Part shown: one piece after another, positions 3,900 to 63,690 of the stretch
Layout of the letters: the number at the start of each line of letters is the position of its first letter
Numbering within the stretch: position 1 is the stretch's first letter
Source of the DNA: Mytilus trossulus
Taxonomy: Eukaryota
Assembly: GCF_036588685.1 (NCBI RefSeq)
Contig: NC_086377.1
Location: 12,586,001-12,650,000, forward strand
DNA length: 64,000 nucleotides
Direction: 5' to 3'
Made by a program: the position numbers and the translations under genes
The notes under the pieces: model-generated
Told to the model about the DNA's origin: nothing
Database searches by the model: none
The model's input: only the letters and a program-made list of their open reading frames with translations

Positions 3900-5032
3900 C
3901 AGGGATATATTTATCTAACAACTGTACCAGATTAAAGCATTTCAGACAAGGTCTTCTTCGTGTTACCTATAACGAGACAATATCTTAATTGGAATGTTTC
4001 AAAACATTTCTGGATAATATGTATTATTAATCATGTCTATCAAAAGATGGACACGAAAAGAAAGGTTCAGCTATATTTGTTTTCAGAACTCTAGTTGATG
4101 TAAGTTTGGGTTGTTATTAGTCTGTAGCAAAGTGGTGTTATTCTTTGCATTATATGTAACAAAAACACGACCGGAAGCAGTAAACAACTGCAAATAACCT
4201 CATTTGAGTTTTATCTGTCCTGGTGCACATTTCAAACTACATGTGCACCATGGTTGACCTCCACTCACAAGTCCTGCAAATGAAAAAAAATGTATAACTT
4301 CAAGATTTGATATTGTCATGTACATAACATTGAACAATTGGTTGATGAAGTACATATTTCATAAATAATATTTGTCCACAGCCATATTTGGAATTCACCT
4401 TGCTTTTTTTATCTGATTTGCCATAATAAAGAACTCTCATCAGAAATCATAACAAAATCCAGAGATAAATAAATACAATGAATTGTGTAGAGCTGTATAT
4501 TAAAAAAAAAGGAAATACAATAAATGACCATATGTAGTTATGGCTCATGAAATTTAACCACGTTTTTTATGTTTCGTATGTTATCAGAAGAGAACAATTT
4601 TATTACACTGAGCTGTGTATGTGTCACATAGTTCATAGCGTATTATGTGGTTTGATTTTTAAAATTCACCATGGTTAAATGCAGACATTTAAACATAAAA
4701 AAAAATGTGATGTAATTAGCAAAAATTTAATTCGCTAAGGACCGGATGAAACAACATTTAGCAACTAAAGGTTATCGTACGGCTTCAATAATTAAAATTA
4801 GGTCGATTGTTATAAAAAAAATTGCATATACGGTCAAAACTAATATAAATGCAAATATGAGATATTGTGTTTATGGTATTGTTAAGAACCATTATGTAAA
4901 AGGTTACCACTGGTTACGGCTTTTTTCTTATAGATAATATAAATGATCATTTAGAATATACCTGTACTTATGACCTTCTTTGCCATATGCCGAAACAGAA
5001 GCGACAAGCGAAACTAGAAGAAGAGTCAACAT
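3900..5032 (-). pseudogene. Copy 0: pseudogene of the secreted Gly-rich/six-Cys protein family
   Basis: Exon 1 remnant 5032-4962 (MLTLLLVSLVASVSAYGKEG, Gly block deleted, donor now phase 2). Exon 2 remnant 4273-4200 (LVSGGQPWCTCSLKCAPGQIKLK*). Non-coding exon 3 remnant starts at 3966. Promoter is retained. Confidence 0.9.
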
Positions 5033-5059
5033 AATGATTGGTTATTTTGATCTGTATAA

Positions 5060-5580
5060 GATGTGAAGTATACTCCAATATGTATGACCTTTTATAATTT
5101 GTTTATTGTAAGACACGTGATACATAGCCTAAAAAACATTGGATTGATATATTATGAAAAATGAGATTTATAAAATTGTGGTTTTGAAATATTATGCAAA
5201 TATTATAATTGCATATCTTGATTAAGCAGGTTTTTTTTGGACAAAGTCCGATACATAGCATGCAACTATCACGCATGTCAACAAATGACCTTCATGGATA
5301 TGAGAGAAAAAATAACTGTGCTGATGTCAGCAAGTTTAAATGTAAAAAGAATAAATCTGTCAACGTTAAATATTGCATCATAATATAGTATAGTAGTGCA
5401 TATTTTGATCAAGGATTTTTTTATATAGAAAAGTCCAATCTATAGCATGCAACTATCACGAACAAGTAATATGACCTTATTAGAATAGAAGAAAAACTTT
5501 TTTTGTTTATGTCAGCCAGTTATAAATGAGAAAAAATGAAACTAATAACGTAAAAGATATTGCATCATATTATAGTACAG
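5060..5580 (-). promoter_or_regulatory. Family promoter module of copy 0 with a tandemly duplicated distal half
   Basis: TATAAAA and CACGTG proximal. The block GCATGCAACTATCACG...TGTCAGC...ATTGCATCA occurs twice (~5210-5395 and ~5397-5580). Confidence 0.65.
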
Positions 5581-11877: not shown

Positions 11878-12257
11878 CTAATAGTATCCTTTACCAGATG
11901 ATCCACCGACAACCCTGCTGCCTCCACTAACTACACTGACTGGTCCAGTAACAATACCACCAATGGGTCCTCCAATACCACCGATTGGACCAAGAACTCC
12001 ACTACCACCTCCAACAAGACCGCTTACACCGGCGATAATACCTCCACCACCGATGATACCTCCACCACCAATAATACCAGCTCCTCCAAGGGAAGCACCG
12101 TAATTTTGGTTGGTTACCCACCATGGCAATACAGAACAACAAGTATTCAAACTTCCTGGCAGGAGAGGTGCCAAGTTGCAGTTTTTGCTGAGTTTAATCT
12201 GTCCTGGTGCACATTTCAAACTACATGTGCACCATGGTTGACCTCCACCGACAAGTC
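11878..12257 (-). CDS. Copy 1 coding exon 2: six-Cys domain and Gly-rich tail (spliced protein 198 aa)
   Basis: Acceptor TTGCAG|GA at 12257, phase 1 matches exon 1. Reads LVGGGQPWCTCSLKC...NTCC...GKGYY* with TAG at 11880-11878; GTAAGT donor at 11866. Confidence 0.92.
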
Positions 12258-12940
12258 CTGCAATTTAAACAAAATATACTAACTTCAAGATTTGATGATT
12301 GATAAAAACTTATTTAATAAATGATATTTGTCTAGAGCCATTTGTAGAATGCACGTTGCGGTTTTCTTGAAACACCACATTAATAAACTCTGATAAGGAA
12401 GCATAAACAATTTAGAGAGAAGTAAATACAATGAATTGTGTAGAGCTGTATGATTAAAAAGGGAAATAAAATACATGGTCAAATGTGTTCATTGCTGATC
12501 AAATTTCAACGAAGATTTACAAAATTCGTATGCTATCAGCAGAGAACACATATATTACTATCATTTGTTTATTCCACCGAAGATTAACATCATACTTGGT
12601 TTTTCCCTGTAAGTGTCATGTATGGTGAAGCGTATTATGTGGTTTTATTTTGAGCTGGAATATTCACCAATGCAGACATATGAATATATAAAAAAAAGAA
12701 TATATGGTGTAATTGGCAATGAGTTAACATGCTAAGGATCAAAGACACAAAATCTAGAAACTAAATACTATCGAACGGTTTCAATAATCAAAATTCGGTA
12801 AATTATTTTGAGAAAAATTGCATGAAATGTTAGAACTTATATACATACAAATATGACATATTTTGATGATGCTATTGTTCAGAACTATTTTATTTCGGCT
12901 TTTTCCTTATTGATTATATAAATAGTCATTTAGATCATAC

Positions 12941-13157
12941 CTGTATTTAATCCTCCGATCAATCCTCCTAAACCGCCACCATTTAACAGAAGTCCACCAC
13001 CACCGACAATCCCTCCAGATCCACCAATAATTCCACCACCGCCGAGAAGTGGGCCACTTGTGATAACTCCACCATTGACAAGTCCTCCTAATAATGGACC
13101 TCCTTTGTTGTATGCCGACACGGAGGCGACAAGCGAAACTAGAAGAAGAGTCAACAT
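12941..13157 (-). CDS. Copy 1 coding exon 1: signal peptide and Gly-rich block
   Basis: ATG at 13157, MLTLLLVSLVASVSA|YNKGG...GLNT; donor CAG|GTATGA at 12941/12940; 217 nt, phase 1. Confidence 0.92.
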
Positions 13158-21299: not shown

Positions 21300-21720
21300 A
21301 ATAAACTTCAATCTGTTCTTTCAAATTAATAAACTTATGAAACGAAAACGAATTACTTTAGTGTAAAATGTACTATAATATGATGCAATATCTAACGTTG
21401 ACAGATTTTATTTTTTAGTCAATTACACCTGTCTGACATCGGTGAACATTCTTTTTTATTTTATCTAATAAGGACATCGTTCACGTTCATGGTAGTTGCA
21501 TGCTATGTATTTGACTTTGTCCACAAATAAAACCTGCTTAATCAACATATGGATACATTGCACATGTTTACACCACAACTTTATAAATCTATCTTTTTGT
21601 AATATATCAAACCACAGTTTTTAACTATGCATTACGTGTCTAATAGTCAAATAAACAGAGTATAAATGACATGCGTTTCTGAGTATACTTCACATCTTCT
21701 ACAGATCAAAATAACCCATC
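21300..21720 (+). promoter_or_regulatory. Family promoter module of truncated copy 2
   Basis: TGATGCAAT at 21381-21389, TGACATCG, GTTGCATGCTATGT and TATAAA at 21661; 5' UTR homologous to the other copies. Confidence 0.65.
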
Positions 21721-21795
21721 ATGATGTTTACTCTACTTCTAGTTTCTCTTGTCGCTTCTGTTTCGGCATATGGTATTATTAGGAAGGCAAGCTGA
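21721..21795 (+). pseudogene. Copy 2: 5' fragment only (signal peptide)
   Basis: Reads MMFTLLLVSLVASVSAYGIIRKAS*. A small deletion follows YG and homology stops at ~21785 against a repeat; no plus-strand exon 2 follows. Confidence 0.85.
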
Positions 21796-28309: not shown

Positions 28310-31300
28310 TCAGGAATATGTTTATTTTACAAATGTACAGATCTAAAGCATTTCATAGCAGGTCGTCTTCGTGTTACCTACAACGATAATAATGATTTAA
28401 AGATATGTTCTATAATATAGTATTAATTATGTTTATCCTCATCTTAGTATATATCTAGGATTATGATTGGTTAACGCACGTCGTTACAAAACCCAAAGTC
28501 CCTGGGTGTTGCTAACCATATACCCGGACGTTGCTAACCTTTATCCCGTGGGAACTTCACGCAAGTTTTCCTTAGTTCCATGGTTGTTCCTTGTGAAATA
28601 TTGAATTCTGTAGATTATTCATGATGTTTGTAATCAAATATTTAATTCATTAACGATTTTGTCCTTTTATGCCGATTATACTAATTTCATTAAATGCATC
28701 ACTTGACTGACACATTTTCAAGGAATAGGACTACTGACTTATCTATGAAAATCACCCTCGTTGACGTCAAACCATCTATTACGTAACTCCAACAACATTG
28801 AGCGCCAAATTTGACTCAATCCGGTTTCTCTGTCTCCGTATTAAAAACGTCTTATATTTGACTACCTGTAGGGTTCTAACAACGGAAGTACCCTACACCC
28901 CGTAAATAATATGTAAAATTTCCAAATTTCAATAAAACTTTTTTTAGATAATGAACAAAAACGTTGTGTTCACGTTACACTTGGTACCCGAATTTCCATT
29001 AAAACTCGCCCGATTCGGACTTAGACCGGGGATAAATACGCCTCATGGGGAACTGGGGTACTTCAGGGTGTTAAAATAACCATACATACGGATATGAACG
29101 TAGATAACTTATAATATCAAAACCTTACATTGAAATGACAAGAAAGGTTTACCTATATTAGTGACACAGGAGATGTTGTTGTTTTAAGAACTGTAGTTGA
29201 TTAAGGAGTAAGTTCAGTAAGACCCCTGTTTGGCCCCAAAATATAAAAGTTTTACAAAATTACGAAAATATAATCTTTTAGCTACTTACAGAAAGTCAAA
29301 TACTTCTGCTACATAAATTTTGTAAAAAACACAATGTACATATATCGGGTATTAACATCATTAGGTCATGCTAAATTACTGAAATCTTCACAATTTGAGC
29401 ATTTTGTTAAAATTTTAGACGGTTTCCGTCTAAAATGAAAGTCGCCGCACTCGTGTTCATTCATAATTTTGAAATGTCAGTTGTTTTTCATGGTAATTCA
29501 TAACAAGTATAAAGGTTGAGGATGATCACGGATGCGGCCACTTTCATTTTTGACCAAAGCCATCTGAAAAGTGACGTTTTATTGGCATATATGATATATT
29601 TTTCATATTTAAGCTTGCATCGTAGAGTATTTAAAGAATGAATCAGTAAAATATATGTTAAATAAAATTATTGAATCAATTTAAATGGACAATTAAGAGT
29701 TAAAACTTCTTTCTTTCGATGAACCTTAGTTTTGAGGCCAAAATCGGCCGTTAACCTGCTCATGTTGATCCTTAGTTGTCTGTAGCAAGTTGTGGTTTAT
29801 TAAAATACGTTTGTATGCATGTCGTTGTGCGTGTGTTTCCTTAACGTTTCTTTTTTTCATAAATTTTCATACAGACAAGAAAGCATGCAATTTCAAATGA
29901 TCTCATATGTAATCAAGATCTAATATAAATGGCTATGTATCGATACAGTATTTTGTATTAAACATGCGACAATAAATATTACTTATTCTGTTGCTTTAAG
30001 ATTTGACAACGCGATCAGCATCATACTGTTCTAAATGAATAATAATTTCTTATGCACGACTTGAACAAAACTGTGTTGAACTAATTTATTATTGAAGCTG
30101 TCGATGTGCATACAATGTTAATACAGAAATATTGAATGCTAAGCAGAAACTTACCTTTTAGAATATCTAATAGTATCCTTTACCAGTTGATCCACCGACA
30201 ACCCTGCTGCCTCCACTAACTACACTGACTGGTCCAGTAACAATACCACCAATGGATCCTCCAATACCACCGATTGGGCCGCCAATACCACCGATTGGAC
30301 CAAGAAGTCCACTACCACCTCCAACAAGACCACTAACACCACTGATGATACCTCCACCACCAATAATACCTCCACCACCAATAATACCAGCCCCTCCAAG
30401 GGAAGCACCGTAATTTTGGTTGGTTACCCACCATGGCAACAAAGAACAACAAGTATTCAAACTTCCTGGCAGGAGAGGTGCCAAGTTACAGTTCTTGTTG
30501 AGTTTGATCTGTCCTGGAGCACATTTCAAACTGCATGTGCACCATGGTTGACCTCCACCAACAAGTCCTGTAAAGATATCAAAATACATAAATTACAAAA
30601 TATCATAGTGTCATGTATATAACATCGTCCAATTGGTTGATGACGTACATATTTAATAAATGATACTTTTCCCAAGCGATTTTCTTTATTTACCAAACTA
30701 GTAAATGCTCATAAGAAAACATACGAAACCCATATATATGTAGAATACAATGAAATGTGTAGAGCTGTATGAGAAACATACATTGATACGATGTTAATTT
30801 ATAAAAGATTCACAGGAAATTACAAATTACTACCGAGAAATGTACATGGAACGGGAAATTATATTTGAAAAAATCGCTATGATGCCGTAAATCATTATCA
30901 AAATATTTTTTTTAAAATGACCGTTACATACAACAAGGATGACCGTGATTGGCAAACAGTTGACCGTTACTTGTAAAGGATGACTGTAATGTGTAAAGGC
31001 TAAGTGTAATTTTTAAAGGATGACCGTCATTTGTAAAGGATGAGTGTAATTTATAAAGGATGACCGTAACTTTTAAAAGATGTCGGTCAATATTCTAAGA
31101 GATATCCATAGGTGTAGTCCTAGCTTTATGTTGACTTTGTCTCAATAAGGGATCGGTTAGTGGATACTAATATGTTTCATAAACATTGCCGTGTTTTGGG
31201 TTCATGACAATGATAGTACATTGCATATTGACAAACAATGAAATATTTATTGATAACAATGTTAAAATGTTAATACAAATTGACAGCGATACGACGAAAA

Positions 31301-32692
31301 TTTTAAGAAACATGAAATACGGATGCCTCATACACTTTCATTTTCAAGTGGGCCGTGAAATGGAATAAAACTGTTAGTTGACATTGTAATTAACAAAATC
31401 ATATCATAGTGAAAATCATCAGATTATCAACAATTTCCTAGACCAAAAAATGTAACCCGAAGCTGGACAGACGGACGAACGGACAGACTAACGAACGCAC
31501 TGACCAGAAAAATTAACGACTATTTTAAGGATCTGTTTTGCTTGAGCTCACCCTCATTAGCTTAGTCGTATTATTTTCAAAACATTTTTTATTTTTTTAG
31601 TTGCAAGAAAAATGGAAGACTAATTAGAGATGATATAATACCAATGGGTGTACATAAACATGATGAATTGGCATTTATTAAAGGTGTATTTATTGTGTCA
31701 TTAAAAGGAATCCCAGAAACAAAAAAAAATCGTTTGTTGTTCATGTGCATGTCTTGTTGTAAATTCATTTAAAGAATTAAGACCTCTACCGTAAAAAAGA
31801 TATTTATGGTTAACACATATTTGAAGCACGTCTTATTTTCTTCTACCTATAGGGTAAAACTTTCTTATTAACACGTTGATACTAACACGATTAATCATTT
31901 GAAACAAAAAAGGTAGTTATATAAAAAACGATATTTTTCTAAGATTTGACGGTCATCAAATAAAAGTTACGGTCATCTTAAAACCAATGACAGTAACCCT
32001 TGTTATGAATTGCTGATTATGTTACGGTCATCTCGATTGTGATTTACGGTCACCTGAGCGATTTTTTCAAGTCGAAATTCCAATTTCATACACATTGCTC
32101 GGTACTAATAAGTGATTTCAGTGTGAATCTTTTATAAATTTACATCGTATCTATGTTTGATTTGTAAAATAAATGATTTAGAAGCACGTTAACATACAAT
32201 ACAAATACTGACCTAAGTTTTCATCCAACATCTTGGTATGACCGTTAATGCAGTTACGGTCATCATCTTTACCCCCAAGGAATTATGGCAATAGGTTAAA
32301 TATTTCACAAACGTTAAATGAAATGTCAAAACAAATGTGCATGCATAAACCAAATATTTAAATTATTGTAAGGAACCAATTTATAACGGGTTGTGGATTT
32401 TTTTCCTTTCCATAGAGTAAATGGTCATTTATAACATACCTGTATTTATTCCTCCAACTAATCCTCCTAATCCACCTAATCCACCTAATCCTCCTAATCC
32501 CCCTAATCCACCATTGTTGAGCAGAAGTCCACCACCACTGACAATTCCTGCAGATCCACCAATAATTCCACCACCACCAAGGAGTGGACCACCAGAAACA
32601 ACTCCACTACTAACAAGTCCTCATAATAATGGACCTCCTTTGCCATATGCCGAAACAGAAGCGACAAGAGAAACTAGAAGTAAAGTCAACAT
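28310..32692 (-). pseudogene. Copy 3: full-length gene with a single nonsense codon (putative young pseudogene or null allele)
   Basis: Exon 1 32692-32440, exon 2 30567-30155 (stop 30169-30167), exon 3 from 28377 with AATAAA at 28326-28321. Splice sites and frame are intact (would be 217 aa), but codon 24 is GGA>TGA at 32623-32621. Confidence 0.88.
29201..29760. mobile_element. MITE (AAAATGAAAGTGGCCGCA family) in intron 2 of copy 3
   Basis: Starts TTAAGGAGTAAGTTCAGTAAGACCCC; counterpart in intron 2 of copy 4 at ~39050-39480. Confidence 0.65.
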
Positions 32693-33459: not shown

Positions 33460-33697
33460 AACTAAAGTATAAGTAGCATCAGTGTCAATAGTAGCCCTGC
33501 CTAAAGTATAAGTAGCAGCAGTGTCAATGGTACCCCTGACTAAAGTATAAGTAGCAGCAGTGTCAATGGTAGCCCTGACTAGTATAAGTAGCAGCAGTGT
33601 CAATGGTAGCCCTGACTAAAGTATAAGTAGCAGCAGTGTCAATGGTAGCCCTGACTAAAGTATAAGTAGCAGCAGTGTCAATGGTAGCTCTGACTAG
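33460..33697. repeat. 39-bp minisatellite, about 6 units
   Basis: Unit AAGTATAAGTAGCAGCAGTGTCAATGGTAGCCCTGACTA. Confidence 0.92.
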
Positions 33698-35544
33698 TGT
33701 GGTTTTACAGCTGCAGGTATAACTAAATATCTATCAATATTTCTACCAACAAGCTCATCAAGGCTCTCTTTCTCTTTTCACTCGCGAAAACAAATCTGAT
33801 TCAGATATCACCTCCCCCCAATTTTAAAGTTAAGTGGCTGTTCCTTTATGAAAGCCATTATTTTGATGATTTGCAGTAGTTTAAATAAACTATAGAAGTC
33901 TCGATTGCGCATTAGAAAACGTAGGCTGCAGCAGCGTGCTTGCAGACGAAAAAAAGGATTGAGATGTTAGGGCTCACTACATTTTTATCTTTTCTGTTTG
34001 TTTCAAATGATATTTCTTCTCCTAAAAATGCATGAAATATTTGCCACTGGACGTTAATCAACCAACAATAAATCAATCTTCTCCATGGAATATTTGACGA
34101 AGGGAGAGAGAAATGTTTTTTTTTTTAATTTTAAGTGTAATTTGACGGATCTGAGATACTAGACAAACATATCATTTACCTCACACTTTTTTTTAGTAAT
34201 GAATTTATGCGTGAATCGTTGTTTGAGTAAAAACCAGTGGCCGATATTTCTATGTACGTCAAGTCAGTTCGGGAAGACCTTTTCAAATAAATTAGGCAGC
34301 AGCTATATAATTTTCGTAAGAGGGGGGAGTGAATTTTTCATGACAAATTTTGGTCGAAAACATTTTTTTTCTTTCAATTTTAGCATTAAATATATTGGCA
34401 GTTGAAAGCAAAAGAAAATTTCAGTGTTAAAAAAATATTTGTTTTTCTCCAAAACTGGAAACACTTTTTTCCGAAAAATCCATAGCCTACACCCCACACA
34501 CACACACATTACCCCGAAAATCAATAGAAACTTCTTTATTGGTTTGGCAATGATGCTGCTTTGAGTCTTGATCAGGGGCTTATAAAGTACGTTAATTTAA
34601 AAAAAAAGTAATAAACATAATATACATTTTAGACAACAATTTCTGTAAAGAACCTTATTGATAATTGTTGAAATTATCAATTTTATTCAAAAAAAGTTTC
34701 CTTCTTAAATATAAAAACGAATCAACTAATGTCCTAAATGCCTACATTTGTGTACACTTAACCTACACAAGGCCTGCATTGAGTTTCGAATGTGTGTAGA
34801 CCAAACATGATTTAAACTACATGTAAACATTGCGTGTTATCAATGGGAACGCAATTGTGTTTAGTTTACGTGTGAGTTACACTAACACAACACCAAATTT
34901 ATGTCAATGTGAACACGGCCGAAGACAAATTACACTTCAATATTAAGAATGAACAGGAATGCGGCCACTTTCATTTAAGACGAAAACCGTCTAAAATATA
35001 TCTAAAATGCTAAAATGTGAAGATTTCAGTAGTTTAGCATGACTTGATGATGCTAGTTCCCGATATATGTGCATTGTTTTTTGTCAAACACAGCCCATAT
35101 TTATTAACCAGAAGCAATACATAAATAAAAGTATATATATTTTTAAAATTTTGTAAAACTGCTGTATGTTAGGACCAAAAAGGGGTCTTACTGACACTAC
35201 AACTTTTGAAAACATTAAAACTAAAAAACAATATAGAGCACACTTTGTTAATATTATGGATGAGTAAAACGTTAGGCTCATGAAACAGTATTCTTTTTTA
35301 CCAATCAATGCTATTGGTGTATTTTCCGACAAAATATTTGACAGTTCTTTTTTAGGATATTATTTATCAAGTAATGCGAAGAAACACTTGTTCTTTGTAT
35401 GATATTCCCTTTTCATTGAAGACATTAATTTCTACATTTCTATTTCATTCCGCATGCCCATCTCAGCAAGATATAAAGATAGTGTATCTTTGGATCAGTA
35501 TGTTCTGTAAGCTTATTACACTAATGAAACCGTTTACATTACTC

Positions 35545-35870
35545 TACAATGCACTATAAGATGATGCAACATTTAACACTGATATATTTATCCTTTTCTC
35601 ATTTACAACTGGCTGACATCAGCTATCTTTTTTATTTCTTTCTGAAAATATCATATTTTATGTTCGTGATAGCTGCATGCCTGTACTGGACTGTGTCCAC
35701 AAAAAAACACGTACCTAATCAACATATGCATAAATTGCACTATTTAAAACCGCAAATTTATAAATCTCCTTTTTCATAATTTATCAAACCACTGTTTTTT
35801 AGTAATGTATCACGTGTCTTACAATAATCATAGTATAAAAGAACATTCATATCTAAGTATATTTCACATC
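35545..35870 (+). promoter_or_regulatory. Family promoter module of copy 4
   Basis: TGATGCAAC 35562-35570, TGACATCA 35614-35621, CACGTG 35811-35816, TATAAAA 35834-35840, and Inr-like TCACATC with A at 35866 (32 nt after the TATA start). Confidence 0.7.
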
Positions 35871-35894: not shown

Positions 35895-36150
35895 ATGATG
35901 TTGGCTGTACTTCTAGTTTCTCTTGTCGCTTCTGTTTCGGCATATGGCAAAGGAGGTCCATTATTAGGAGGACTTGTTAGTGGTGGAGTTGTTACTGGTG
36001 GTCCACTCCTTGGCGGTGGTGGAATTATTGGTGGATCTGCAGGAATTGTCAATGGTGGTGGACTTCTCCTTAACAATGTTGGATTAGGAGGATTAGGAGG
36101 ATTAGGTGGATTAGAAGGATTAGGTGGATTGGTTGGAGGAATTAATACAG
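35895..36150 (+). CDS. Copy 4 coding exon 1: signal peptide and Gly-rich block
   Basis: MMLAVLLVSLVASVSA|YGKGG...GINT; donor CAG|GTATGT at 36150/36151; phase 1. The start could be the second Met at 35898. Confidence 0.92.
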
Positions 36151-36323
36151 GTATGTTATAAATGACTATTTATATTATGGAAAGGAAAAAGTCCACAACC
36201 CGTTATAAAATGGTTCCTAACAATAGTTTAATAATTATTATTTAAATATTTGGTATATGCATGCGTAATTTGTTTTGACATTGAATGCAACGTTTGTGAT
36301 ATAATTTACCTATTGCCATAATT

Positions 36324-37434
36324 CACTGGGGTAAAGCTGATGACCGTAACTGCAATCACTGTCATCTCAAGATGTCGGGTGAAATATTGGGTCATTTTTT
36401 TTTTGTATGTTAACGTGTTTCTAAATCATTTTCTTTACAAATCATACATTGATACAATGTAAATTTATAAACGATTCAAACGGAAATCACTAATTACTAC
36501 CGATAAATGTACATGAAACAGGAATTTCGACTTGAAAAAATCGCTCAGATGACCGTAAACCACAATCGAAATGATCGTAACAGAATCAGCATTTCATAAC
36601 AACATGTGAACAAGGGTGACTGTTATTGGTTTTAAGATAACCGTTATTTGTAAATGATGACCGTCTCTTTTAGATGATGACCGTCCAATCTTCGAAAAAT
36701 ATCCGTATTTATATAACTACCTTTTGTTGTATCAAATGATTAATCGTTTTGGTATACACGTATTTATAGAAGATTATTACCCTATAGGTAGAAGAAATTA
36801 AGACGTGCTTCAAATACATAGTTTTTCATCAATATATTTTTACCGGTAGAGGTCTTAATCTTTTAAATGAATTTGCAACAAGACATGCACATGAACACCA
36901 TTTATAACATTGTTATCAATACATATTTCATTGTTTACGAGAAATATGCAATTTACTAGCATTGTCATGAACCCAAAACACGGCAAATATTTAAAAAGAA
37001 AGGTATGAAACATATTAATATCCGCTAACCGATCCCTAAATGAGACAAAGTCAACAAAAAGCTAGGACTACAAATACGGATATGTCTTAGAATATTGACG
37101 GTCATATGTTTACCAATCGCGGTCATCTGTTTACCAATAACGGTCATCTGTTTACCAATCACGGTCATCCTTGTTATATGTTACGGTCCTCTTGAAAATA
37201 TTTTGATAATGATTTACGGTCATCTTAACGATTTTTTCAAATCGAATTTCCCTTTTTATGTTTAATTCTCGGTAGTCATTTGTAATTTTCCTTTGCATCT
37301 TTACGTCGTATCAATGTATGCTTTGTAAAGAAAATGATATATAAGCACTTTAAAACAATACGGAAACTGACCTTATTTTTCATCCGACATCTTAGGATGA
37401 CTGTTATTTAACAGTCATCAGCTTTACCCCAGTG
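36324..37434. mobile_element. Long-TIR (foldback-type) non-autonomous element in intron 1 of copy 4
   Basis: CACTGGGGTAAAGCTGATGAC...GTCATCAGCTTTACCCCAGTG with GATGACCGT sub-repeats in both arms, flanked by ATAATT on both sides. Confidence 0.75.
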
Positions 37435-37974
37435 ATAATTGTTGTAGCCGTTCGGTGCCATATAGTTGCTTTTGTATTTGTCATTTGGTACATAATAGGT
37501 TCTCTCATTGGCAATCAGGCCAAATAATATTTTTCTAATGTATAATCAATAAAACAAAATTGAACATAAAACCACAATATACGCTATGAACTCTGTAACA
37601 ATGTGTAATAGGTGCAAACCTGGTGGACTTATTATCATCGGTGGTGTACACAGCACAAAACAATACTTGTATTTCATGTTGTTAGCATCTGTTATTATAA
37701 AGAATCAGTGCTCTAACTCAATCAACAAGAAATACATGTACATTTGGCGCTGCGTTTAATTTCCGTTTTTATCATACAGCTCTACACATTTCATTGTATT
37801 CTATATTCGTAGGTTTCGTATGTTTTCTTATGAGCAGTTACTAGTTTGGTAAATAAAGAAAATCGCTTTGGAAAAATATCATTTGTCTAGTATGTACGTC
37901 ATCAACCACTTGGACGATGTTATATACATGACACTATGATATTTTGTAATAAATGTATTTTGATATCTTTACAG

Positions 37975-38354
37975 GACTTGTTGGTGGAGGTCAACCATGG
38001 TGCACATGTAGTTTAAAATGTGCCCCAGGACAGATTAAACTCAACAAAAACTGTAACTTGGCACCTCTCCTGCCAGGAAGTTTGAATACTTGTTGTTCTT
38101 TATTGCCATGGTGGGTAACCAGCCGAAATTACGGTGCTTCCCTTGGAGGCGCTGGTATTATTGGTGGAGGAGGTATTATTGGTGGTGGAGGTATCATCGG
38201 TGGTGTTAGTGGTCTTGTTGGAGGTGGTAGTGGACTTCTTGGTCCAATCGGTGGTATTGGAGGACCAATCGGTGGTATTGTTACTGGACCAGTCAGTGTA
38301 GTTAGTGGAGGCAGCAGGGTTGTCGGTGGATCAACTGGTAAAGGATACTATTAG
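37975..38354 (+). CDS. Copy 4 coding exon 2: six-Cys domain and Gly-rich tail (spliced protein 211 aa)
   Basis: Acceptor TTTACAG|GA at 37975; ends GKGYY* at 38354; donor AAG|GTAAGT at 38366/38367. Confidence 0.92.
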
Positions 38355-38414
38355 ATATTCTAAAAGGTAAGTTCTGCTAATCATTGATTTTTTTCTGTAT
38401 AAACAGTGTATATA

Positions 38415-38730
38415 AAAAAGAAGATGTGGTATGATAGCCAATGAGACAACTATCTATAAAAGACCAAAATGGCACAGACATTAACAACTATAGGTCACCG
38501 TACGGCCTTCAACAATGAGCAAAGCCAATACCACATAGTCAGTTATAAAAGGCCCCGATAAGACAATGTAAAACAATTCGAACTAGAAAACTAACGACCT
38601 TATTATGTAAAAAAAGGAACGAAAAACAAATAAGTAACAACCACTGAATATACAGGCTCCTGACTTGGGACAGTCAGATAAATAATGTGGCGAGGTTAAC
38701 CTGGGACAGTGGTATAACAGTACAACACAA
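38415..38730 (+). repeat. High-copy interspersed repeat (AAGATGTGGTATGATTGCCAATGAGACAAC family)
   Basis: Related copies at ~440-480, ~56890-57145, ~57850-58010 (inverted) and ~63820-64000. Absent from the matching intron of copy 3. Confidence 0.75.
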
Positions 38731-39624
38731 GTGTATACACATCGACAGCACCAATAATAAATTAGTTAAACACAGTATTGTTCAAGTCGTGCATTAGAAA
38801 TAATTATTTATTTGACTTAAAGTACAGTATGATGCTGATCGAGTTGTCAAATCTTACTGCAACGGAACAAGGAATACTTATCGTCGCATGTTTAATACAA
38901 AGTAATGTATCGATACATAACCAGTTATATTAGATTACATATCAGATCATTTGAAATTGAACGCTTTCTGGTGTTTATGAAAGTTTATGAAAAAAGTAAC
39001 GTTAAGGAAACACATACACATACAAACATATTCAAATTAATTCAATAAGTGAAAGTACATGCTACGATTCAAGCTTAGACATGAAAAATCTATCATATAT
39101 GAACAAAACCGTCACTTTTCAGAAGGTTTTGGTCAAAATGAAAGTGGCCGCATCCGTGTTTATCCTCAACCTTTATATACTTATGTATAACCATCAAATA
39201 CAACTTACATTTCAAAATTTTGAATGAACACAGATGTTAGACGGAAACCGACTTAAATTTCATTAAAATGCTAAAATTGTGAAGATTTCAGTTATTCAGC
39301 ATGACCTAAAGATGCTAATACCCGATAAATATGCATTGTTTGTTTTTATAAAACGACCAATATTTATGTTGCAGAAATATTTGACTTTCCAGTAAATAAC
39401 TAAAATATTACATTTTCATACTTTTGTAAAACTGCTATATTGTGGGGCCAAAAAGGGGTCTTACTGAACTAACTCCTCAACATGAACTACAGTTTTAAAA
39501 GCAACAAATATAGGTAAATCTCTCTTTTTATGCCAATGTTATGTTTTGATATACATAATTAATATCATAAATATTATCGAGAATATATTTGAATCATTAT
39601 TATCAGTGTATTGTATCGTTGTAG

Positions 39625-39700
39625 GTTACACGAAGACGACCTGATATGAAATGCTTTAGAACTGTACATTTGTAAAATAAACATATTTCTGACAAACTTA
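39625..39700 (+). other. Copy 4 non-coding exon 3 (3' UTR) with polyA signal
   Basis: Acceptor GTAG|GTTACACGAAGACGACCTG at 39625; AATAAA at 39676-39681. Confidence 0.7.
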
Positions 39701-40319
39701 TATGTTTCTTTCATTTAATGACACATTAAGTGTTTGGTTGTGTTATGATTTTTTTTAAATATTTGTACACTAACACTGTGAAGATTTTTCCCGTACGTCA
39801 TAAAAAACGCAGCACAACAACAAGACGCACATCATTCTATAGAACACACTTTAAATTAATCTATCCTCTGATAACAATTGTCCTATTCCTGCTATGTACA
39901 GGCATTTTCTTTAAATGATGGATTGCATAGCTAACAAAACGTATAACTTATATGACAGTTTCACAACATTCAATTATACTGACAACGATGTTTGCACAAA
40001 GAACACAGCCAAAGTACAGTTACTATGTTGTCCTTGTCAAAAGAAGCGGGAAAGTAGTTACCATTGTGTTGCAATCTTAATTACTATTTAACAAGCAACT
40101 ATGTTAACAAATAAAAACAAAAAAATCATATAGACAACAGCATGTAAACAAACACTAAAGACAATAACACAAACATTTATCATAGCAAAATGAGGCAATG
40201 GTAGAATGTATATGTACTAAGCCACGTACATTATATATCATCATAAATGGACTAAACAGTACAAGAAACACTTATCAAAAACGTGCATGTACAAAAGATT
40301 ACTATACCACGTTATTTCT

Positions 40320-40895
40320 GCTTTCCAATTGTGAACTTTCCTTTTCTAAGTAGCAACATTCCAGCAGCACCTACATACGGGTTAAATATCTCCCAATTGA
40401 TACGATAGTCCCGTGCTTCATTTCCTATCATGATTTTCTTGATAGAGGATTGCTGCTCATAAGGAAGCTTTTAAACCAAGAGTTCCAAATGATGAAGTTG
40501 AAATCATCCCTACGTAAATTTGACGAACGCCATCACAAGTTGGTTTACCGTTATGGAATAACCATTTCAAAAATGATATCGGATATGTTAATTACGTCAT
40601 AATTACAATCCCCTTCCCCTTCATGAATGTGACCTACCGATGTAGACTATTTACTGGATTTGTTATTACATAAGCAACACGGCGGGTGCCATATGTGCAG
40701 CAGGATCTGCTTACCCTTCCGGAGCACCTTAGATCACCCCTAGTTTTGGGTGGGGTTCGTGTTGTTTTTTCTGCAGTTTTCTATGTTGCGTCATGTGTGC
40801 TATTGTTTGTCTTTTTCATTTTTAGCCTTGGCGTTCTCAGTTTATTTTAGATTTATGATTTTGACTGTCCCTTTGGTATCTTTCATCCCTCTTTT
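40320..40895 (+). mobile_element. 5'-truncated Penelope-like retroelement fragment
   Basis: Translates FPIVNFPFLSSNIPAAPTYGLNISQLIR*SRA, an RT C-terminal motif. Absent from the paralogous arm near 27680. Confidence 0.72.
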
Positions 40896-41613
40896 AGCAA
40901 GATTGATAACCCTGCTAGTACCTAAACAATACATTTAAGACAATTGTATATTATCTGTGATGTTGATACAGTGTACTCACCGATACGGACGTAGTATGCT
41001 GCTGGTGACTTATTTGTTTTGACGATCTTTGATTCGATTCTTAGTTTTCATCTAAGACACTGTTACACTGTAACAATTTTACAAAGTCTGCATACCGGAG
41101 GAAGTAGAGACTATATATCCCATCTGCCGGTGATGTTGGTATACTGCCACTAGGTGGTGGATATTCAAAGTTTCAAAAATCGTCTCGTTTGACTAAGATT
41201 ATGACCGCATATGTCAAAATCAAGGTACACGTCTAAAAACGTATCTGTTTTGTCTTTAAATTTTAGTTCTGAAAGATCGCAGCCCAATAAAAAAAACAAG
41301 GTTGGGTTGGTATTTACCACCCCCGGTATTCATAAGTGGTGTTCACCAGTATTAATCACCCCGGACAAAACTCCACGAGTTGTTAATACTTGCAGATACT
41401 GGTCAACTGATAATGATTTAAATTTTCATGCTTCTTTTGAGCGACTTATCTATCAATAGTTGTAAACATTTTTATGATCAGGAAAAGTTCTTTTCCATGA
41501 GCATGATTCAGTTTATAAATATGAATGATTTTGGTATGTTATTCACTATCAAGACATCACAAATTACTACTTTTGGATTAGTTAGTATTGCATACTGTTG
41601 ATGTACAAATAAA

Positions 41614-42150
41614 GGAGTAAGTACGGTAAGGGCCATATTTGGCCCCAATTATAAAGTTCATAGTTACAAGACAGTAAATGTCTTAAGTTGCCTTAAAGAC
41701 ATGTCAGAAAGTTAAACTAAACTGTTTTTGTCAAAGTTTAATTCTCACACGTTGATTTTACGTCCCAAAAGGGTCAAAATAAGGGATTTTGGTGAAATTT
41801 GAAATTTTCAATCACATTTACGACCAGGAAACATAGAGCGCAGTCGTCGACAAAGTTAATATCCAAATAAGACATGTGAAATGTCTTCACAAACATTATT
41901 TTAAAAGATCGTTGTTGTCGACGTATGCGCTCTATGTTTCCTGTTTAATAATCTTAGGAAATTTACCGATTTTTATTGATTTTTTCGTGAAAAATCAATA
42001 TTAGTACAACTTGTGACGTCATAATGAAACGCAGAAACGTAAAACTTTCAACAAAATGGCTCATTTCCTTTCAAGTCACTTAATTCGCTATAATTTATTG
42101 TGATATTGGTCAATAAATCCGAATTAGAAATTTATTACTGAACATACTCC
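41614..42150. mobile_element. MITE with GGAGTA...TACTCC termini
   Basis: Imperfect TIRs GGAGTAAGTACGGTAA / TTACTGAACATACTCC. Empty site visible in the inverted paralogue at ~26955-26966. Confidence 0.7.
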
Positions 42151-42240
42151 TTTGCTATTTCAATTTTTTAAAGTGTATAAATAAAGATATTTTTTTATAA
42201 AAAAGATTTGAATTGACAGGTAAATAGAATAAATATAGAA

Positions 42241-42355
42241 TAAAGGACTTTTTGTTTTTGATACTGACTTTATCACAGTAAAATATCAGGTGAGCCCGAA
42301 GTGCGAGCATGATATTTTCTGTGATAAAGTCAGTATCAAAAAAAAAAGTCCTTTA
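42241..42355. repeat. Near-perfect hairpin (~48 bp arms)
   Basis: TAAAGGAC...GATACTGACTTTATCACAG...loop...CTGTGATAAAGTCAGTATC...GTCCTTTA. Confidence 0.9.
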
Positions 42356-42767
42356 TGTTGTTTATCGGTAATTAAAGAAAAATAAAAATCACTACAATAA
42401 TAGAGAAAATTACAAACGAACTCCTTTTTCGCGTCGAATCACGGCGAATCACACTTGACGTCACAGGCTGCATTACGTCATTTGAAAGTTTGTCACAGTG
42501 CAGTAAACATGCCGTTCTCTTGTACAAAGTATTGAAAAGGAATTATAGCATGCGTTTCATTAATATTCTGCTTTGGACATGACACTAACAATGGCAAATA
42601 TAATGGTAGCATACCGGTAAGTCAAGTTTCTTTATTTTTCACAAAGCATCATCATAGTGATAAATAGTCAGTAATAACGAAATAGTGTGAGGAGACATTT
42701 ATACTGGAGCCCACCCCATCCCCCTCTTTTCTCCCTAGGCAGTGTAAGCTGACTGTAAATTATCTGA

Positions 42768-47663: not shown

Positions 47664-48049
47664 TTAATAGTATCCTTTACCAGTTGATCCGTATCCACCG
47701 ACAACACTGCTGCCTCCACTAACTACACTGACTTGTCCTGTAACAACACCCCCAATTGGACCTCCAATACCACCGATTGGACCAAGAAGTCCACTACCAC
47801 CTCCAACAAGACTACTGACACCACCGATGATACCTCCACCACCAATAATATCTCCAGCACCAATAATACCAGCACCTCCAAGGGAGGCACCGTAATTTTG
47901 GTTGGTTACCCACCATGGCAATAAGGAACAACAAGTATTCAAACTACCAGGAAGGAGAGGTGTCAAGTTACAGTTCTTGTTGAGTTTAATCTGTCCTGGT
48001 GCACATTTCAAACTGCATGTGCACCATGGTTGACCTCCACCGACAAGTC
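47664..48049 (-). CDS. Copy 5 coding exon 2: six-Cys domain and Gly-rich tail (spliced protein 209 aa)
   Basis: Acceptor TTCCAG|GA at 48049; ends GGYGSTGKGYY* (TAA 47666-47664); donor AAG|GTAAGT at 47653/47652. Confidence 0.92.
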
Positions 48050-48586
48050 CTGGAAATAAGAAAAATATGATTCAATTCATGATTCACACTCATATGTGTA
48101 AAGGAACGTACATGACTGGTCAAATTCATTTTTCGCTGATCTAGTTTGAACATCGTTTCTTTATGATTTCGTATGTTATCACTAAGGAATACATGTATTA
48201 CTTTGAGCTACATGGAAACTGTCGATGAATAAAAGTCTAGTAGGTTTTAACCTGTAGATGTCATAAAATTGGTAGCGTATTTTATGGTTTTATCTACAGC
48301 TGGAACGTTCATCTACGTTTAATGTTGACATTGATCAAAATATAAGATACTGAAAAGAATGTATAGTGTGATGGTCAATTGGAAAAATTACTAGGGACTA
48401 ATGACACAACAATCAGTAATTTTTTAGGTCACTGCACGGATTAAGCAATTCAAATTATGCATTTATTGTCAGATCAAATAAAACACGCAAAGATGAGTGG
48501 TTTTGATTTTGCTATTGTGAGAATCATTTTATAACCGGTCGTGGATTTTCTTTCATAGATAATATAAATGGTTATTTATAACATAC

Positions 48587-48830
48587 CTGTGTTTAATCCA
48601 CCGATCAATCCTCCTAATCCACCTAGTCCTCCTAGTCCTCCTAATCCACCATTGTTAAGCAGAAGTCCACCACCATTGACAATTCCTGCAGATCCACCAA
48701 TAATTCCACCGCCACCAAGGAGTGGACCACCAGTAACAACTCCACCACTAACAAGTCCTCCTAATAATGGACCTCCTTTGCCATATGCCGAAACAGATGC
48801 GACAAGAGAAACTAGAAGTAATGTCAACAT
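48587..48830 (-). CDS. Copy 5 coding exon 1: signal peptide and Gly-rich block
   Basis: ATG at 48830, MLTLLLVSLVASVSA|YGKGG...GLNT; donor CAG|GTATGT at 48587/48586; 244 nt, phase 1. Confidence 0.92.
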
Positions 48831-51437: not shown

Positions 51438-51743
51438 TAAGTAGCAGCAGTGTCAATGTTAGCCCTGACTAAAGTATAAGCAGCAGCAGTGTCAATGGTA
51501 GCCCTGACTAGTATAAGTAGCAGCAGTGTCAATGGTAGCCCTGACTAAAGTATAAGTAGAAGCAGTGTCAATGGTAGCCCTGACTAAAGTTTAAGTATCA
51601 GCAGTGTCAGTGGTAGCCCTGACTAAAGTAAAAGTAGCAGCAGTGTCAATGTTAGCCCTGACTAAAGTATAAGTAGCGGCAGTGTCAATGGTAGCCCTGA
51701 CTAAATTATAAGTAGCAGCAGTGTCAAAGGTAGCCCTGACTAG
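51438..51743. repeat. 39-bp minisatellite, about 8 units
   Basis: Same unit as 33460-33697. Confidence 0.92.
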
Positions 51744-61169: not shown

Positions 61170-61413
61170 ATGTTGACTCTACTTCTAGTTTCTCTTGTTG
61201 CCTCTGTTTCGGCATATGGCAAAGGAGGTCCATTATTAGGAGGACTTGTTAGTGGTGGAGTTGTTTCTGGTGGTCCACTCATTGGCGGCGGTGGAATTAT
61301 TGGTGGGGCTGGTGGAATTGTCAGTGGTAGTGGACTTCTGCTTAACAATGGTGGATTAGGAGGATTAGGAGGATTAGGTGGATTAGGAGGATTGGTTGGA
61401 GGAATACATACAG
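61170..61413 (+). CDS. Copy 6 coding exon 1: signal peptide and Gly-rich block
   Basis: ATG at 61170, MLTLLLVSLVASVSA|YGKGG...GIHT; donor CAG|GTATGT at 61413/61414; phase 1. Confidence 0.92.
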
Positions 61414-61585
61414 GTATGTTATAAATGACCATTTATATTATGGAAAGGAAAAAATCCACAACCCGTTATAAAATGGCTCCTAACAATAGTTTAATAAAAA
61501 TAATTTAAATATTTGGTATATGCATGCACATTTGTTTTGACATTGCATTCAACGTTTGTGTAATAATTTACTTTTTGCCATAATT

Positions 61586-62820
61586 CCTTGGAGTAAAGCT
61601 GATGACCGTAACTGCATTCACGGTCATCCCAAGATGTCGAAAGAAATATTAGGTTAGTATTTGTATTGTATGTTAACGTGTTTCTAAATCATGTTGTTCA
61701 CAAATCATACATTGATACGATGTAAATTCATAAAAGATTCACACGGAATTCATTATTTACTACCAAGAAATGTGCATGAAACAGGAATTGCGAATTGAAC
61801 AAATCGCTCAGATGACCGTAAATTACAATCGAGATGACCGTAACAGAATCAACAATTCATAACAAGGGTGACTGTAATTGGTTTTAAGATGACCTTTATG
61901 TGTAAATGATGACCGTAACCTTTAGATGATGACCGTCAAATCTTAGAGAAAAATATCCGTAAATGATTAATTGTGTTGGTATAAACGTAATTATAGGAGA
62001 GTATTACTCTATAGGTAGAAGACAATAAGACGTGCTTCAAATACATAGTTAACAAGCAATATCTTCTTTACGGTAAAGGTCTTAATTTTTTAAATGAATT
62101 TGCAACAAGACATGCACATAAACAACAAACGATTTTTGTTTATGTCTGGGATTCCTGTTAATGCCATTATACATAGTACTGGAGACACGTTCATGGTTCT
62201 TAAATTTTTCGTCGTATCGCTGTCAATTTGTATTAGAATATTAACATCGATCTCAATAAATATTTCATTGTTTACGATAAATATGCAATTTACTAGAATA
62301 GTCATGAACCCAAAATACGGCAAATAGTTAAAAACAAATGTATGGAACATATTTATATCCACTAATCGATCCCTTATTGAAACAAAGTAAACAAAAAGCT
62401 ATTACAAATACTGATATCTCTTACAATATTGACGGAAATCTTTTAAAAGTAACGGTCATCTATTATACATTACACTCAGCCTTTACAAATTACAGTCATC
62501 CTTTACAAGTTGCGGTCATCTGTTAACCAATCACGGTCATCCTTGTTATATGTTACGGTCATCTTGAAAATATTTTGATAATGATTTACGGTCATCTTAA
62601 TGATTTTTTCAAATAGAATTTCCCGTTTTATGTACATTTCTGAGTAGTTATTTGTAATTTCCTGTGAATCTTTTATTAATTTACATCGCATCAATGTTTG
62701 CTTTATAAAGAAAAGGATATATAAACACTTTAACAGACAATACAGAAACTGACCTAGTTTTTCATTTGACATCTTGGGATGACCGTGAATGCAGTTACGG
62801 TCATCAGCTTTATCCCAGTG
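61586..62820. mobile_element. Long-TIR element in intron 1 of copy 6
   Basis: Same element at the same position as 36324-37434, also flanked by ATAATT. Confidence 0.72.
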
Positions 62821-63289
62821 ATAATTGTTGTAGCCGTGCGGTGCCATATAGTTGATTATGTATTTGTCATGGCAATCATGCCACATTGTATTTTTCTAAT
62901 GTATAATCAATAAAACGAAATTGAGCATAAAACCACAGTATACGCTATGAACTCTGTAATAGGTGCAAACCTGGTGAACCTATATTAATTGATTCATTGT
63001 TTACACAACTCAAAACAATACATGTATTTCATGTTGATAACATCTGTCATTATAAAGAATCAATGCTCTAACTCAATCAACAATAAATACATGTACATTT
63101 GGCGCTGCATTTAACTTCCTGATTTATCATACAGCTCTTATGAGCATTTACTTGTTTGGTAAATAAAGAAAATCGCTTTGGAAGTATATCATTTACTAGT
63201 GTTAGTATGCACGTCATCAACGAATTGGACGATGTTTAATATATGACATTATGACATTTTGTAATTTCTTTCTTTTAATATCTTTACAG

Positions 63290-63690
63290 GACTTGTTGGT
63301 GGAGGTCAACCATGGTGCACATGCAGTTTGAAATGTGCTCCAGGACAGATCAAACTCAACAAGAACTGTAACTTGGCACCTCTCCTTCCTGGAGGTTTGA
63401 ATACTTGTTGTTCCTTGTTGCCATGGTGGGTAACCAGCCAAAATTACGGTGCTTCCCTTGGAGGCGCTGGTATTATTGGTGGTGGAGGTATCATCGGTGG
63501 TGGAGGTATTATCGGTGGTGTTAGTGGTCTTGTTGGAGGTGGTAGTGGACTTCTAGGTCCAATCGGTGGTATTGGAGGGCCAATCGGTGGTATTGGAGGG
63601 CCATTCGGTGGTATTGTTACTGGACCAGTCAGTGTAGTTAGTGGAGGCAGCAGCGTTGTCGGTGGATCAACTGGTAACGGATACTATTAG
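63290..63690 (+). CDS. Copy 6 coding exon 2: six-Cys domain and Gly-rich tail (spliced protein 214 aa)
   Basis: Acceptor TTTACAG|GA at 63290; ends GNGYY* at 63690; donor AAG|GTAAGT at 63702/63703. Exon 3 is expected beyond the window. Confidence 0.92.

What the first reader, a model, noticed from the sequence alone, without database searches (positions are those of the whole stretch)
38001..38096. Alpha/trans-defensin-like Cys array embedded in the middle of a Gly-rich protein
Seen: CTCSLKCAPGQIKLNKNCNLAPLLPGSLNTCC has spacing C-x-C-x3-C-x10-C-x12-CC, three Lys and no acidic residues. It is almost invariant: at most one substitution per copy (N>S, A>T, S>G). Knowledge: CxC...C...C...CC is the spacing of alpha-defensins and resembles other trans-defensin folds. 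Inference: a defensin-like fold co-opted as a disulfide knot or assembly node between flexible chains, or a tethered antimicrobial module. The strong conservation is unlike rapidly diversifying immune peptides and favours a structural role.
Basis: partly seen in the sequence, partly recalled or inferred. Interest (0 to 1): 0.72.

Follow-up and report, generated by a model that had tools for sequence, protein, structure and literature searches.

The report
Defensin-like knot in mussel matrix proteins
A mussel gene family of about 50 copies carries, in the middle of floppy secreted proteins, a small six-cysteine module predicted to fold like mammalian alpha-defensins; relatives have been found in mussel shell, so the module likely serves as a structural knot rather than as an antibiotic.

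Summary
The Cys array is real. It opens exon 2 of a spliced Mytilus gene for a 211-aa Gly/Leu/Ile/Val-rich protein with a signal-like leader; five full copies lie in the window. The genome holds at least 54 related loci, 50 with the full six-Cys pattern, in subfamilies with different low-complexity flanks; 45 of 50 follow a phase-1 splice acceptor. Two AlphaFold2 models (pLDDT 65.5, 68.9) give a three-stranded sheet whose best PDB matches are alpha-defensins (HD6: rmsd 1.3-1.8 A over all 32 residues; scores modest). All 43 domains outside the window's subfamily have Arg and Glu at the alpha-defensin salt-bridge positions; the window's subfamily lost both; none has the invariant Gly. Three relatives occur in published mussel shell proteomes, not called defensin-like. 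'Almost invariant' holds only among 89-95% identical neighbours; subfamilies are 32-56% identical. Best reading: an alpha-defensin-like fold used as a disulfide-locked junction in matrix proteins. Disulfides, oligomer state, tissue and activity are untested. It is not a member of the alpha-defensin family.

The parts
35833..35841 (+). TATA-like box about 60 bases upstream of the start codon
   Evidence: contigs of run X5 begin at 35866-35867; function inferred
35895..36150 (+). Coding exon 1: signal-peptide-like leader (about 16 aa, judged by eye) and Gly/Leu-rich N-terminal flank that starts with Tyr-Gly-Lys
   Evidence: covered by contigs
36151..37974 (+). Phase-1 GT-AG intron, 1824 bases, ending 26 bases before Cys1
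   Evidence: joints across it in runs X20 and X5 come from related copies
37998..38096 (+). Trp plus six-Cys core (the finding); predicted three-stranded alpha-defensin-like sheet
38097..38132 (+). Partly conserved tail of the module (12 residues, Pro-Trp-Trp in this subfamily, Thr invariant in alignment A2); low model confidence
38133..38354 (+). Gly/Ile/Val-rich C-terminal flank ending in a Lys-Gly-Tyr-Tyr motif and the stop codon
38367..39624 (+). Likely intron in the 3' UTR, starting 12 bases behind the stop; a non-coding last exon starts at 39625 with AATAAA at 39676
   Evidence: donor and acceptor; loose ends at 38370 in run X20 match the start of the last exon
11878..13157 (-). Paralogue, intact, 198 aa; Cys core 12136-12231 (N>S)
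30167..32692 (-). Paralogue with an in-frame stop at codon 24 of exon 1 (likely pseudogene or null allele); Cys core 30446-30541 identical to the finding
47664..48830 (-). Paralogue, intact, 209 aa; Cys core 47928-48023 (A>T)
61170..63690 (+). Paralogue, intact, 214 aa; Cys core 63316-63411 (S>G)
4204..5389 (-). Broken copy: promoter and start of exon 1 (4972-5389) and the first 70 bases of exon 2 (4204-4273), cut after Cys3
21314..21773 (+). Orphan remnant of the promoter and signal-peptide part of exon 1

Best explanation
The array is the six-cysteine core of an exon-borne module in a Mytilus family of low-complexity proteins that are likely secreted; it is predicted to fold as an alpha-defensin-like three-stranded sheet and likely acts as a disulfide-locked junction in an extracellular organic matrix such as the shell. 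Shown: gene structure, family size, conserved Cys/Trp scaffold, splicing, and three relatives in shell extracts. Predicted: the fold. Inferred from the register of the structural alignment: intramolecular disulfides 1-6, 2-4, 3-5. Inferred and untested: after secretion the rigid module pairs with the module of another chain (or with another matrix protein) through an edge strand, as alpha-defensins dimerise, and so ties the flexible flanks together, while the Tyr/Lys motifs at both chain ends are later cross-linked by quinone tanning. Subfamilies would tune the material by changing the flanks while keeping the knot.
For: Fold: strands at residues 2-8, 16-22, 32-39 and 2-8, 16-19, 32-38. Foldseek: 13 of 18 rows shown are defensins (11 alpha) for the window domain; 23 of 24 rows shown (19 alpha) for the second subfamily, top HD6 H27W, E 0.078, probability 1.00. 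VIA-align over 48,161 chains ranks HD6 first for both: Z 4.1, rmsd 1.3 and 1.8 A, 32 of 32 residues. Register: model 2-37 aligns with cryptdin-14 residues 3-35, whose Cys are 6, 8, 13, 23, 33, 34 with Arg9-Glu17 bridged (PMC9872612, passages); this puts Cys1-2 and Cys5-6 on the alpha-defensin Cys. Arg at Cys2+1 and Glu at Cys3+4 in 43 of 43 genomic domains outside the window's subfamily. Module: 45 of 50 best-scoring acceptors are phase 1; exon structure checked whole for the five window genes and one Pro/Tyr-subfamily gene; flanks differ between subfamilies. Matrix: Perna viridis Unigene240 and Unigene35334 (PMC6641155, supplement files 2 and 4, taken as the acid-insoluble myostracum and nacre tables) and M. 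galloprovincialis GRS-rich protein-1 from acid-soluble nacre (PMC4517812), deposited as 'nacre Gly-rich protein 1' (P0038), 46% identical to the window domain over 48 aa. Tyr/Lys chain ends resemble the C-terminal signatures of shematrins and KRMPs (PMC3896809, passages). Alpha-defensins dimerise through beta strands, and proHD6 with a long N-terminal extension is still mostly a dimer (PMC4827351 section 10).
Against: Model confidence is moderate (pLDDT 65.5 with the other four models at 49.8-60.7; 68.9; pTM 0.40-0.44); no Foldseek E-value reaches 0.001; Z 4.1 is below the 7-8 that the tool names as a common best score, although a 32-residue target limits Z; AlphaFold2 may favour a memorised fold for this Cys pattern, and Foldseek scores sequence too. 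Disulfides were not read from coordinates. No Pfam or PDB sequence match of significance. The invariant Gly at Cys4-2 is absent in 50 of 50 domains, and the window's subfamily has Ser and Gln in place of Arg and Glu in 7 of 7, one event on one long branch; P0038 also lacks the Glu. The window's own subfamily was not found in the shell tables searched (0 hits for three of its motifs in 5 files of PMC4517812; whether all files list sequences was not checked). The shell hits rest on 1-2 peptides each, and those proteomes also contain intracellular proteins. Tissue of expression is unknown. proHD6 does not form fibrils while extended, so an HD6-type net is unlikely for a tethered domain.
Confidence: 0.55

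Rival explanations
1. Same fold, but the module is a ligand-binding anchor that fixes the low-complexity chains to chitin, glycans or mineral and does not pair with itself.
For: Most subfamilies carry 2-9 aromatic residues in the core, with an invariant Trp before Cys1. The Perna authors list a chitin-binding SCOP hint for Unigene240 in one table. Helianthamide, a defensin-fold protein-binding inhibitor, is among the structural matches (Z 2.7-2.8). Alpha-defensins bind glycans (recalled, no call).
Against: The window's subfamily has one aromatic residue in the core. The SCOP hint changes to another domain in the second table. No chitin-binding family in Pfam.
Confidence: 0.2
2. The module is a tethered or proteolytically released antimicrobial or microbe-trapping peptide that protects the shell-forming space or other surfaces.
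For: Alpha-defensin-like fold. The 22-locus Pro/Tyr subfamily is cationic (+4 to +7) and aromatic, with the highest dN/dS (0.31). HNP1 and HD6 work at +3 and +2. P0038 has basic clusters on both sides of the domain. Family size and clustering resemble immune gene expansions.
Against: No dibasic or R-x-x-R site in the window protein. dN/dS is below 1 in every subfamily measured (0.09-0.31). No short stand-alone precursor among 11 candidates of 25-86 aa, only one exon fragment (weak). Relatives are found in shell matrix with peptides from the flanks.
Confidence: 0.15
3. The defensin likeness is a modelling bias: the Cys form interchain disulfides, a thiol reserve or a metal site, or another small fold (resistin-like).
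For: Moderate pLDDT; no significant E-value; resistin appears at Z 2.1-2.5 and its C-terminal Cys spacing is partly similar (recalled, no call).
Against: Exactly six Cys with nearly fixed spacing (1; 3-4; 10-11; 11-12; 0) in 50 domains, and the Arg/Glu pair in 43 of 43 outside one subfamily, fit a compact intramolecular fold. Two queries 34% identical give the same top match. Resistin aligns worse (rmsd 3.7-4.5 A).
Confidence: 0.1

Closest known systems
Mammalian alpha-defensins (HD6, PDB 1ZMQ; HNP1, HNP4; cryptdin-14, PDB 7YOA; Pfam PF00323)
   Same: C-x-C start and CC end; predicted three-stranded sheet superposing at 1.3-1.8 A on all 32 residues of HD6; Arg and Glu at the salt-bridge positions in 43 of 50 genomic domains.
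   Different: Mollusc, whereas alpha-defensins are reported only from mammals (PMC7203481, passages); internal domain between low-complexity flanks, no acidic propiece; no Gly at Cys4-2; loops longer (10-11 and 11-12 residues against 9 and 9 in cryptdin-14); no Pfam match; the window's subfamily lacks the salt bridge.
Big defensins and beta-defensins of bivalves and vertebrates (Pfam PF14862)
   Same: Trans-defensin-type sheet; phase-1 intron just 5' of the Cys-rich region, a shared trait of these genes (PMC7203481); tandem expansion in mussels.
   Different: Cys1-Cys2 gap is one residue; beta-defensins rank below alpha-defensins in all five fold searches; no hydrophobic globular N-terminal domain; a long C-terminal extension follows the CC.
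Shematrins and KRMPs of Pinctada shell; RefSeq label 'shematrin-like protein 3' (P0003)
   Same: Secreted Gly-rich chains with Lys/Tyr ends; KRMPs also join a small Trp/Lys-rich domain to a Gly/Tyr tail.
   Different: The label appears to rest on composition; neither family is described with this central six-Cys module in the passages read; the window protein has only 2% Tyr.
Nacre Gly-rich protein 1 / GRS-rich protein-1 of M. galloprovincialis (AKQ70859.1); Perna viridis Unigene240 and Unigene35334
   Same: Same six-Cys module in the middle or front of a secreted low-complexity chain: members of this family (the Perna sequences were compared by eye only).
   Different: Other subfamilies with other flanks; published as proteins without homologue, and with no defensin mention in PMC4517812 (0 occurrences).

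Membership tests
alpha-defensins | Six Cys, C-x-C ... C ... C ... CC | tested here: met
   Spacing 1-3-10-12-0; loops longer than in cryptdin-14
alpha-defensins | Three-stranded antiparallel beta-sheet | tested here: met
   Predicted only; top structural matches; moderate confidence
alpha-defensins | Disulfides 1-6, 2-4, 3-5 | tested here: inconclusive
   Aligned ranges put the end Cys in register; bonds were not read from coordinates
alpha-defensins | Arg5-Glu13 salt bridge (HNP1 numbering) | tested here: not met
   Ser and Gln in 7 of 7 domains of the window's subfamily; met as residues in 43 of 43 other genomic domains
alpha-defensins | Invariant Gly17 (Cys4-2) | tested here: not met
   0 of 50 domains
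alpha-defensins | Signal, acidic propiece, C-terminal mature peptide released by proteolysis (recalled; HD6 case) | tested here: not met
   Domain is internal, with 85 residues behind it, one acidic residue in the mature chain and no dibasic site
alpha-defensins | Match to Pfam PF00323 | tested here: not met
   No hit; none of the 5 weak genome hits is a family locus
alpha-defensins | Antimicrobial or trapping activity; dimer formation | not testable with these tools
   Needs bench work; no complex prediction could be run
big/beta-defensins | Phase-1 intron at the 5' end of the Cys-rich region | tested here: met
   Five window genes; 45 of 50 best acceptors; not specific, since phase-1 introns often flank secreted modules (own knowledge)
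big/beta-defensins | Disulfides 1-5, 2-4, 3-6 with beta-type spacing | tested here: inconclusive
   Spacing is alpha-like and beta-defensins rank lower (Z 2.0-2.4); bonds not read
big defensins | Hydrophobic globular N-terminal domain | tested here: not met
   N-terminal part is Gly/Leu low-complexity, no Pfam hit
shematrins / KRMPs | Gly-Tyr repeats with a basic R/K-rich Tyr-ending C-terminal signature | tested here: not met
   Only a Lys-Gly-Tyr-Tyr end; Tyr 2.1%; repeats are Gly with Leu/Ile/Val
mussel shell matrix proteins | Detected in cleaned shell by mass spectrometry | tested here: inconclusive
   Met for three relatives; not found for the window's subfamily

The most novel reading that the evidence does not exclude
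Mussels re-invented the alpha-defensin architecture, including its Arg-Glu salt bridge, independently of mammals, probably from the Cys-rich exon of a big-defensin-type gene, and turned it into a self-pairing building block used in some 50 genes to knot low-complexity chains into shell or other extracellular materials.
Probability: 0.35. Interest if true: 0.85.

Novelty: new variant of a known kind. Interest (0 to 1): 0.68.

Why it matters
Alpha-defensins are reported only from mammals (PMC7203481). An invertebrate family with the same Cys pattern, predicted fold and salt-bridge residues would be a clear case of convergence, or of a hidden branch, within trans-defensins, and a case of an immune-type fold co-opted for a biomaterial. 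It also gives a folded, synthesisable handle on a large set of 'low-complexity, no domain' mussel shell proteins, with a natural experiment: subfamilies with and without the salt bridge, and charges from +1 to +7.

Tried and rejected
Chance ORF: rejected (0 hits in 100 shuffles; splice sites and contig cover). Sequence-level family assignment: nothing significant in Pfam or PDB; one paralogue reaches HD6 H27W only at E 4.1, behind unrelated hits. ESM Atlas: no usable hit for two homologues, no model held. Relatives outside Mytilidae: all named hits (12 proteins; 27) and 80 are Mytilus; the scan of 1.84 billion representatives gave 15 hits, 14 of this family and one unrelated repeat protein (P0034, rejected); supplements of the Pinctada fucata and Tridacna crocea shell proteomes gave 0 motif hits (small files, may hold no sequences). 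This is weak evidence of a mussel-only range. A search for big-defensin genes in the genome found none (6 candidates), so origin from that exon could not be tested. Joint loss of Arg and Glu as covariation evidence: discounted, it is one event. 'Domain more conserved than flanks': not significant. Expression of a second subfamily could not be examined. Literature: ten searches showed no paper that describes this module as defensin-like; motif strings gave 5 unrelated papers. The library lacks most subscription journals; a mussel foot-gland paper was not held; PMC8194122 had no readable supplement; 7 of 16 supplement files of PMC3896809 were not searched. These may bear on tissue and on prior description. 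Earlier scan notes: nothing by sequence or by words.

Full report
Observation. The peptide, its Cys spacing, its three Lys and its lack of acidic residues are as described. Five full copies lie in the window, on both strands, with at most one substitution each in the core; a looser pattern never arose in 100 shuffled windows. The 38-kb gene has coding exon 1 at 35895-36150, a phase-1 GT-AG intron of 1824 bases and exon 2 from 37975, giving 211 aa: a signal-like leader (judged by eye), a Gly/Leu-rich flank, the Cys core, and a Gly/Ile/Val-rich flank ending in Lys-Gly-Tyr-Tyr. The mature chain is 36% Gly with one acidic residue and no dibasic site. One of the five copies has a stop in exon 1, and two more fragments lie at 4.2-5.4 kb and 21.3-21.8 kb. 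In 4 of 24 listed public runs that I laid, summed contig depth in the exon bins was about 10^4 to 10^6 in three runs and at most 78 in bins wholly inside the intron, and contigs of two runs join across the intron. These contigs come from related copies, the libraries are not on record and depth is a poor measure of expression, so this shows that the family is spliced, not where or how much.

The family. All named homologues are Mytilus proteins, labelled uncharacterised, 'shematrin-like', 'keratin-like', 'nacre Gly-rich protein 1' or, for one apparent fusion model, TTN. Three protein searches of the genome gave 54 distinct loci among those fetched, a lower bound: 53 on contig C5, mostly in five clusters, and one on C10. 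Fifty have the full six-Cys pattern and 48 have no stop between Trp and CC. They fall into subfamilies with different flanks: Gly/Leu/Ile/Val (window, 7), Gly/Ile/Val (5), Gly/Ser/Tyr (11), Pro/Tyr/Ser/Gly (22) and 5 others, among them a Gly/Asn one. In 36 distinct domains only Trp, five Cys and a Thr are invariant as aligned, the fourth Cys is shifted by one column in one row, and identity to the window domain falls to 32-56% outside its subfamily. The best-scoring splice acceptor upstream of the core is phase 1 in 45 of 50 loci, mostly 8, 11 or 23 bases before the Trp codon. The core is thus a module at the head of an exon, kept while the flanks were rewritten.

Fold. AlphaFold2 on the window domain with 36 rows gave three strands, mean pLDDT 65.5; on a 34%-identical Pro/Tyr-subfamily domain with 43 rows, three strands, pLDDT 68.9, five models within 4 points. 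Foldseek listed defensins in 13 of 18 and 23 of 24 rows shown, alpha-defensins first, best E-values 1.5 and 0.078. VIA-align against 48,161 chains ranked HD6 first both times (Z 4.1; rmsd 1.3 and 1.8 A; 32 of 32 residues), followed by HNP1 and a macaque alpha-defensin; helianthamide, resistin, bromelain inhibitor, beta-defensins and unrelated folds lie at Z 2.0-2.8. These scores are modest and no match is statistically significant; the weight lies in their agreement and in a feature that is independent of the models. Cryptdin-14 has Cys 6, 8, 13, 23, 33, 34, an Arg9-Glu17 bridge and Gly21, and six Cys, Arg5, Glu13 and Gly17 are the nine invariant alpha-defensin residues (PMC9872612, passages). 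Arg at Cys2+1 and Glu at Cys3+4 are present in 43 of 43 genomic domains outside the window's subfamily; that subfamily has Ser and Gln in 7 of 7; Gly at Cys4-2 is absent in 50 of 50, where the loop is one or two residues longer. The two Perna sequences also show Arg and Glu there (by eye), whereas P0038 has Arg and Val. The window's subfamily is one side of a long, fully supported branch (midpoint root, 44 rows, 47 columns), so its double loss is one event. The model aligns 2-37 to cryptdin-14 3-35 and 4-36 to HNP1 1-30, which places the first and last Cys pairs in the alpha register; the 1-6, 2-4, 3-5 pairing is inferred from this, not read.

Selection. Among the five window copies (89-95% identical) dN/dS is 0.05 in the core and 0.22-0.28 in the flanks, at dS 0.15-0.30; by counts the contrast is not significant (p = 0.24). 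Within subfamilies the core has dN/dS 0.09-0.31.

Where it works. Three family members are in published mussel shell proteomes: Perna viridis Unigene240 (1 and 2 peptides, one directly behind the CC) and Unigene35334 (1 peptide) (PMC6641155; supplement search and passages), and M. galloprovincialis GRS-rich protein-1 from acid-soluble nacre of NaOH-cleaned shell (PMC4517812; supplement search and passages), which is P0038, 46% identical to the window domain. The authors list no homologue for them. The window's own subfamily was not found in those files, and periostracum and byssus were not sampled there. A shell, periostracal or byssal site for this gene is therefore an inference.

Mechanism. 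Most likely (0.55) the module is a disulfide-locked junction: alpha-defensins dimerise through beta strands, and proHD6, with a long floppy extension, remains mainly a dimer though it forms no fibrils (PMC4827351; abstract and section 10). A central dimerising knot plus Tyr/Lys chain ends that could be quinone-tanned, as proposed for the Gly/Tyr region of KRMPs (PMC3896809, passages), would make a network of flexible chains. Pairing and tanning are untested; no complex could be folded. Rivals are a chitin/glycan/mineral anchor (0.2), an antimicrobial or trapping module (0.15; most plausible for the cationic Pro/Tyr subfamily), and a modelling bias (0.1).

Comparison and novelty. It looks like, and may work like, an alpha-defensin, but it fails membership: no Gly17, no salt-bridge residues in this subfamily, no propiece or release site, no Pfam match. 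Alpha-defensins are reported only from mammals, while a phase-1 intron before the Cys region is shared by big and beta-defensin genes (PMC7203481, passages). The simplest history is an independent shortening of the Cys1-Cys2 gap in a big-defensin-type exon followed by recruitment into low-complexity genes, but a de novo origin is not excluded, and the genome search for big defensins was blank. Ten literature searches in an open-access library found no description of this module as defensin-like; PMC5549309, PMC8194122 and PMC10610157 (passages only) added nothing on it. Verdict: a real, undescribed-looking domain family; new variant of the trans-defensin kind; interest 0.68.

Noticed in passing
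window 38367-39700 (+): Likely intron in the 3' UTR that begins 12 bases behind the stop, with a short non-coding last exon at 39625 and AATAAA at 39676.
   Followed up: partly
G000:C5 about 3.82-4.15 Mb (L029, L032-L053, L061, L062): A cluster of at least 25 loci, 22 of them with an Arg- and aromatic-rich version of the module (+4 to +7) and mostly Pro/Tyr/Ser/Gly tails; the best candidate subfamily for antimicrobial activity, and the closest in sequence to HD6 (35-38% in the structural alignments).
   Followed up: partly
L026 (G000:C5 5.49 Mb): Member with a 364-residue tail of about 55% Gly and 28% Asn, like the GN repeats of nacrein-type shell proteins (likeness recalled).
   Followed up: no
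P0036, P0002: Database gene models with two modules in one chain; may be real tandem domains or fused neighbouring genes.
   Followed up: no
   Followed up: no
window 33461-33698 and 51437-51742: Two arrays of the same 39-base tandem repeat (6.1 and 7.9 copies).
   Followed up: no
window 25567-30776 against 37768-44858: Several blocks of 81-91% identity in inverted orientation: the 30-kb and 38-kb genes sit in an old inverted duplication.
   Followed up: no
L008 (G000:C5 12585006), just upstream of the window; L006 and L027 downstream: The cluster continues on both sides: a frameshifted copy upstream, a full exon-2 copy and a member of another subfamily downstream.
   Followed up: partly
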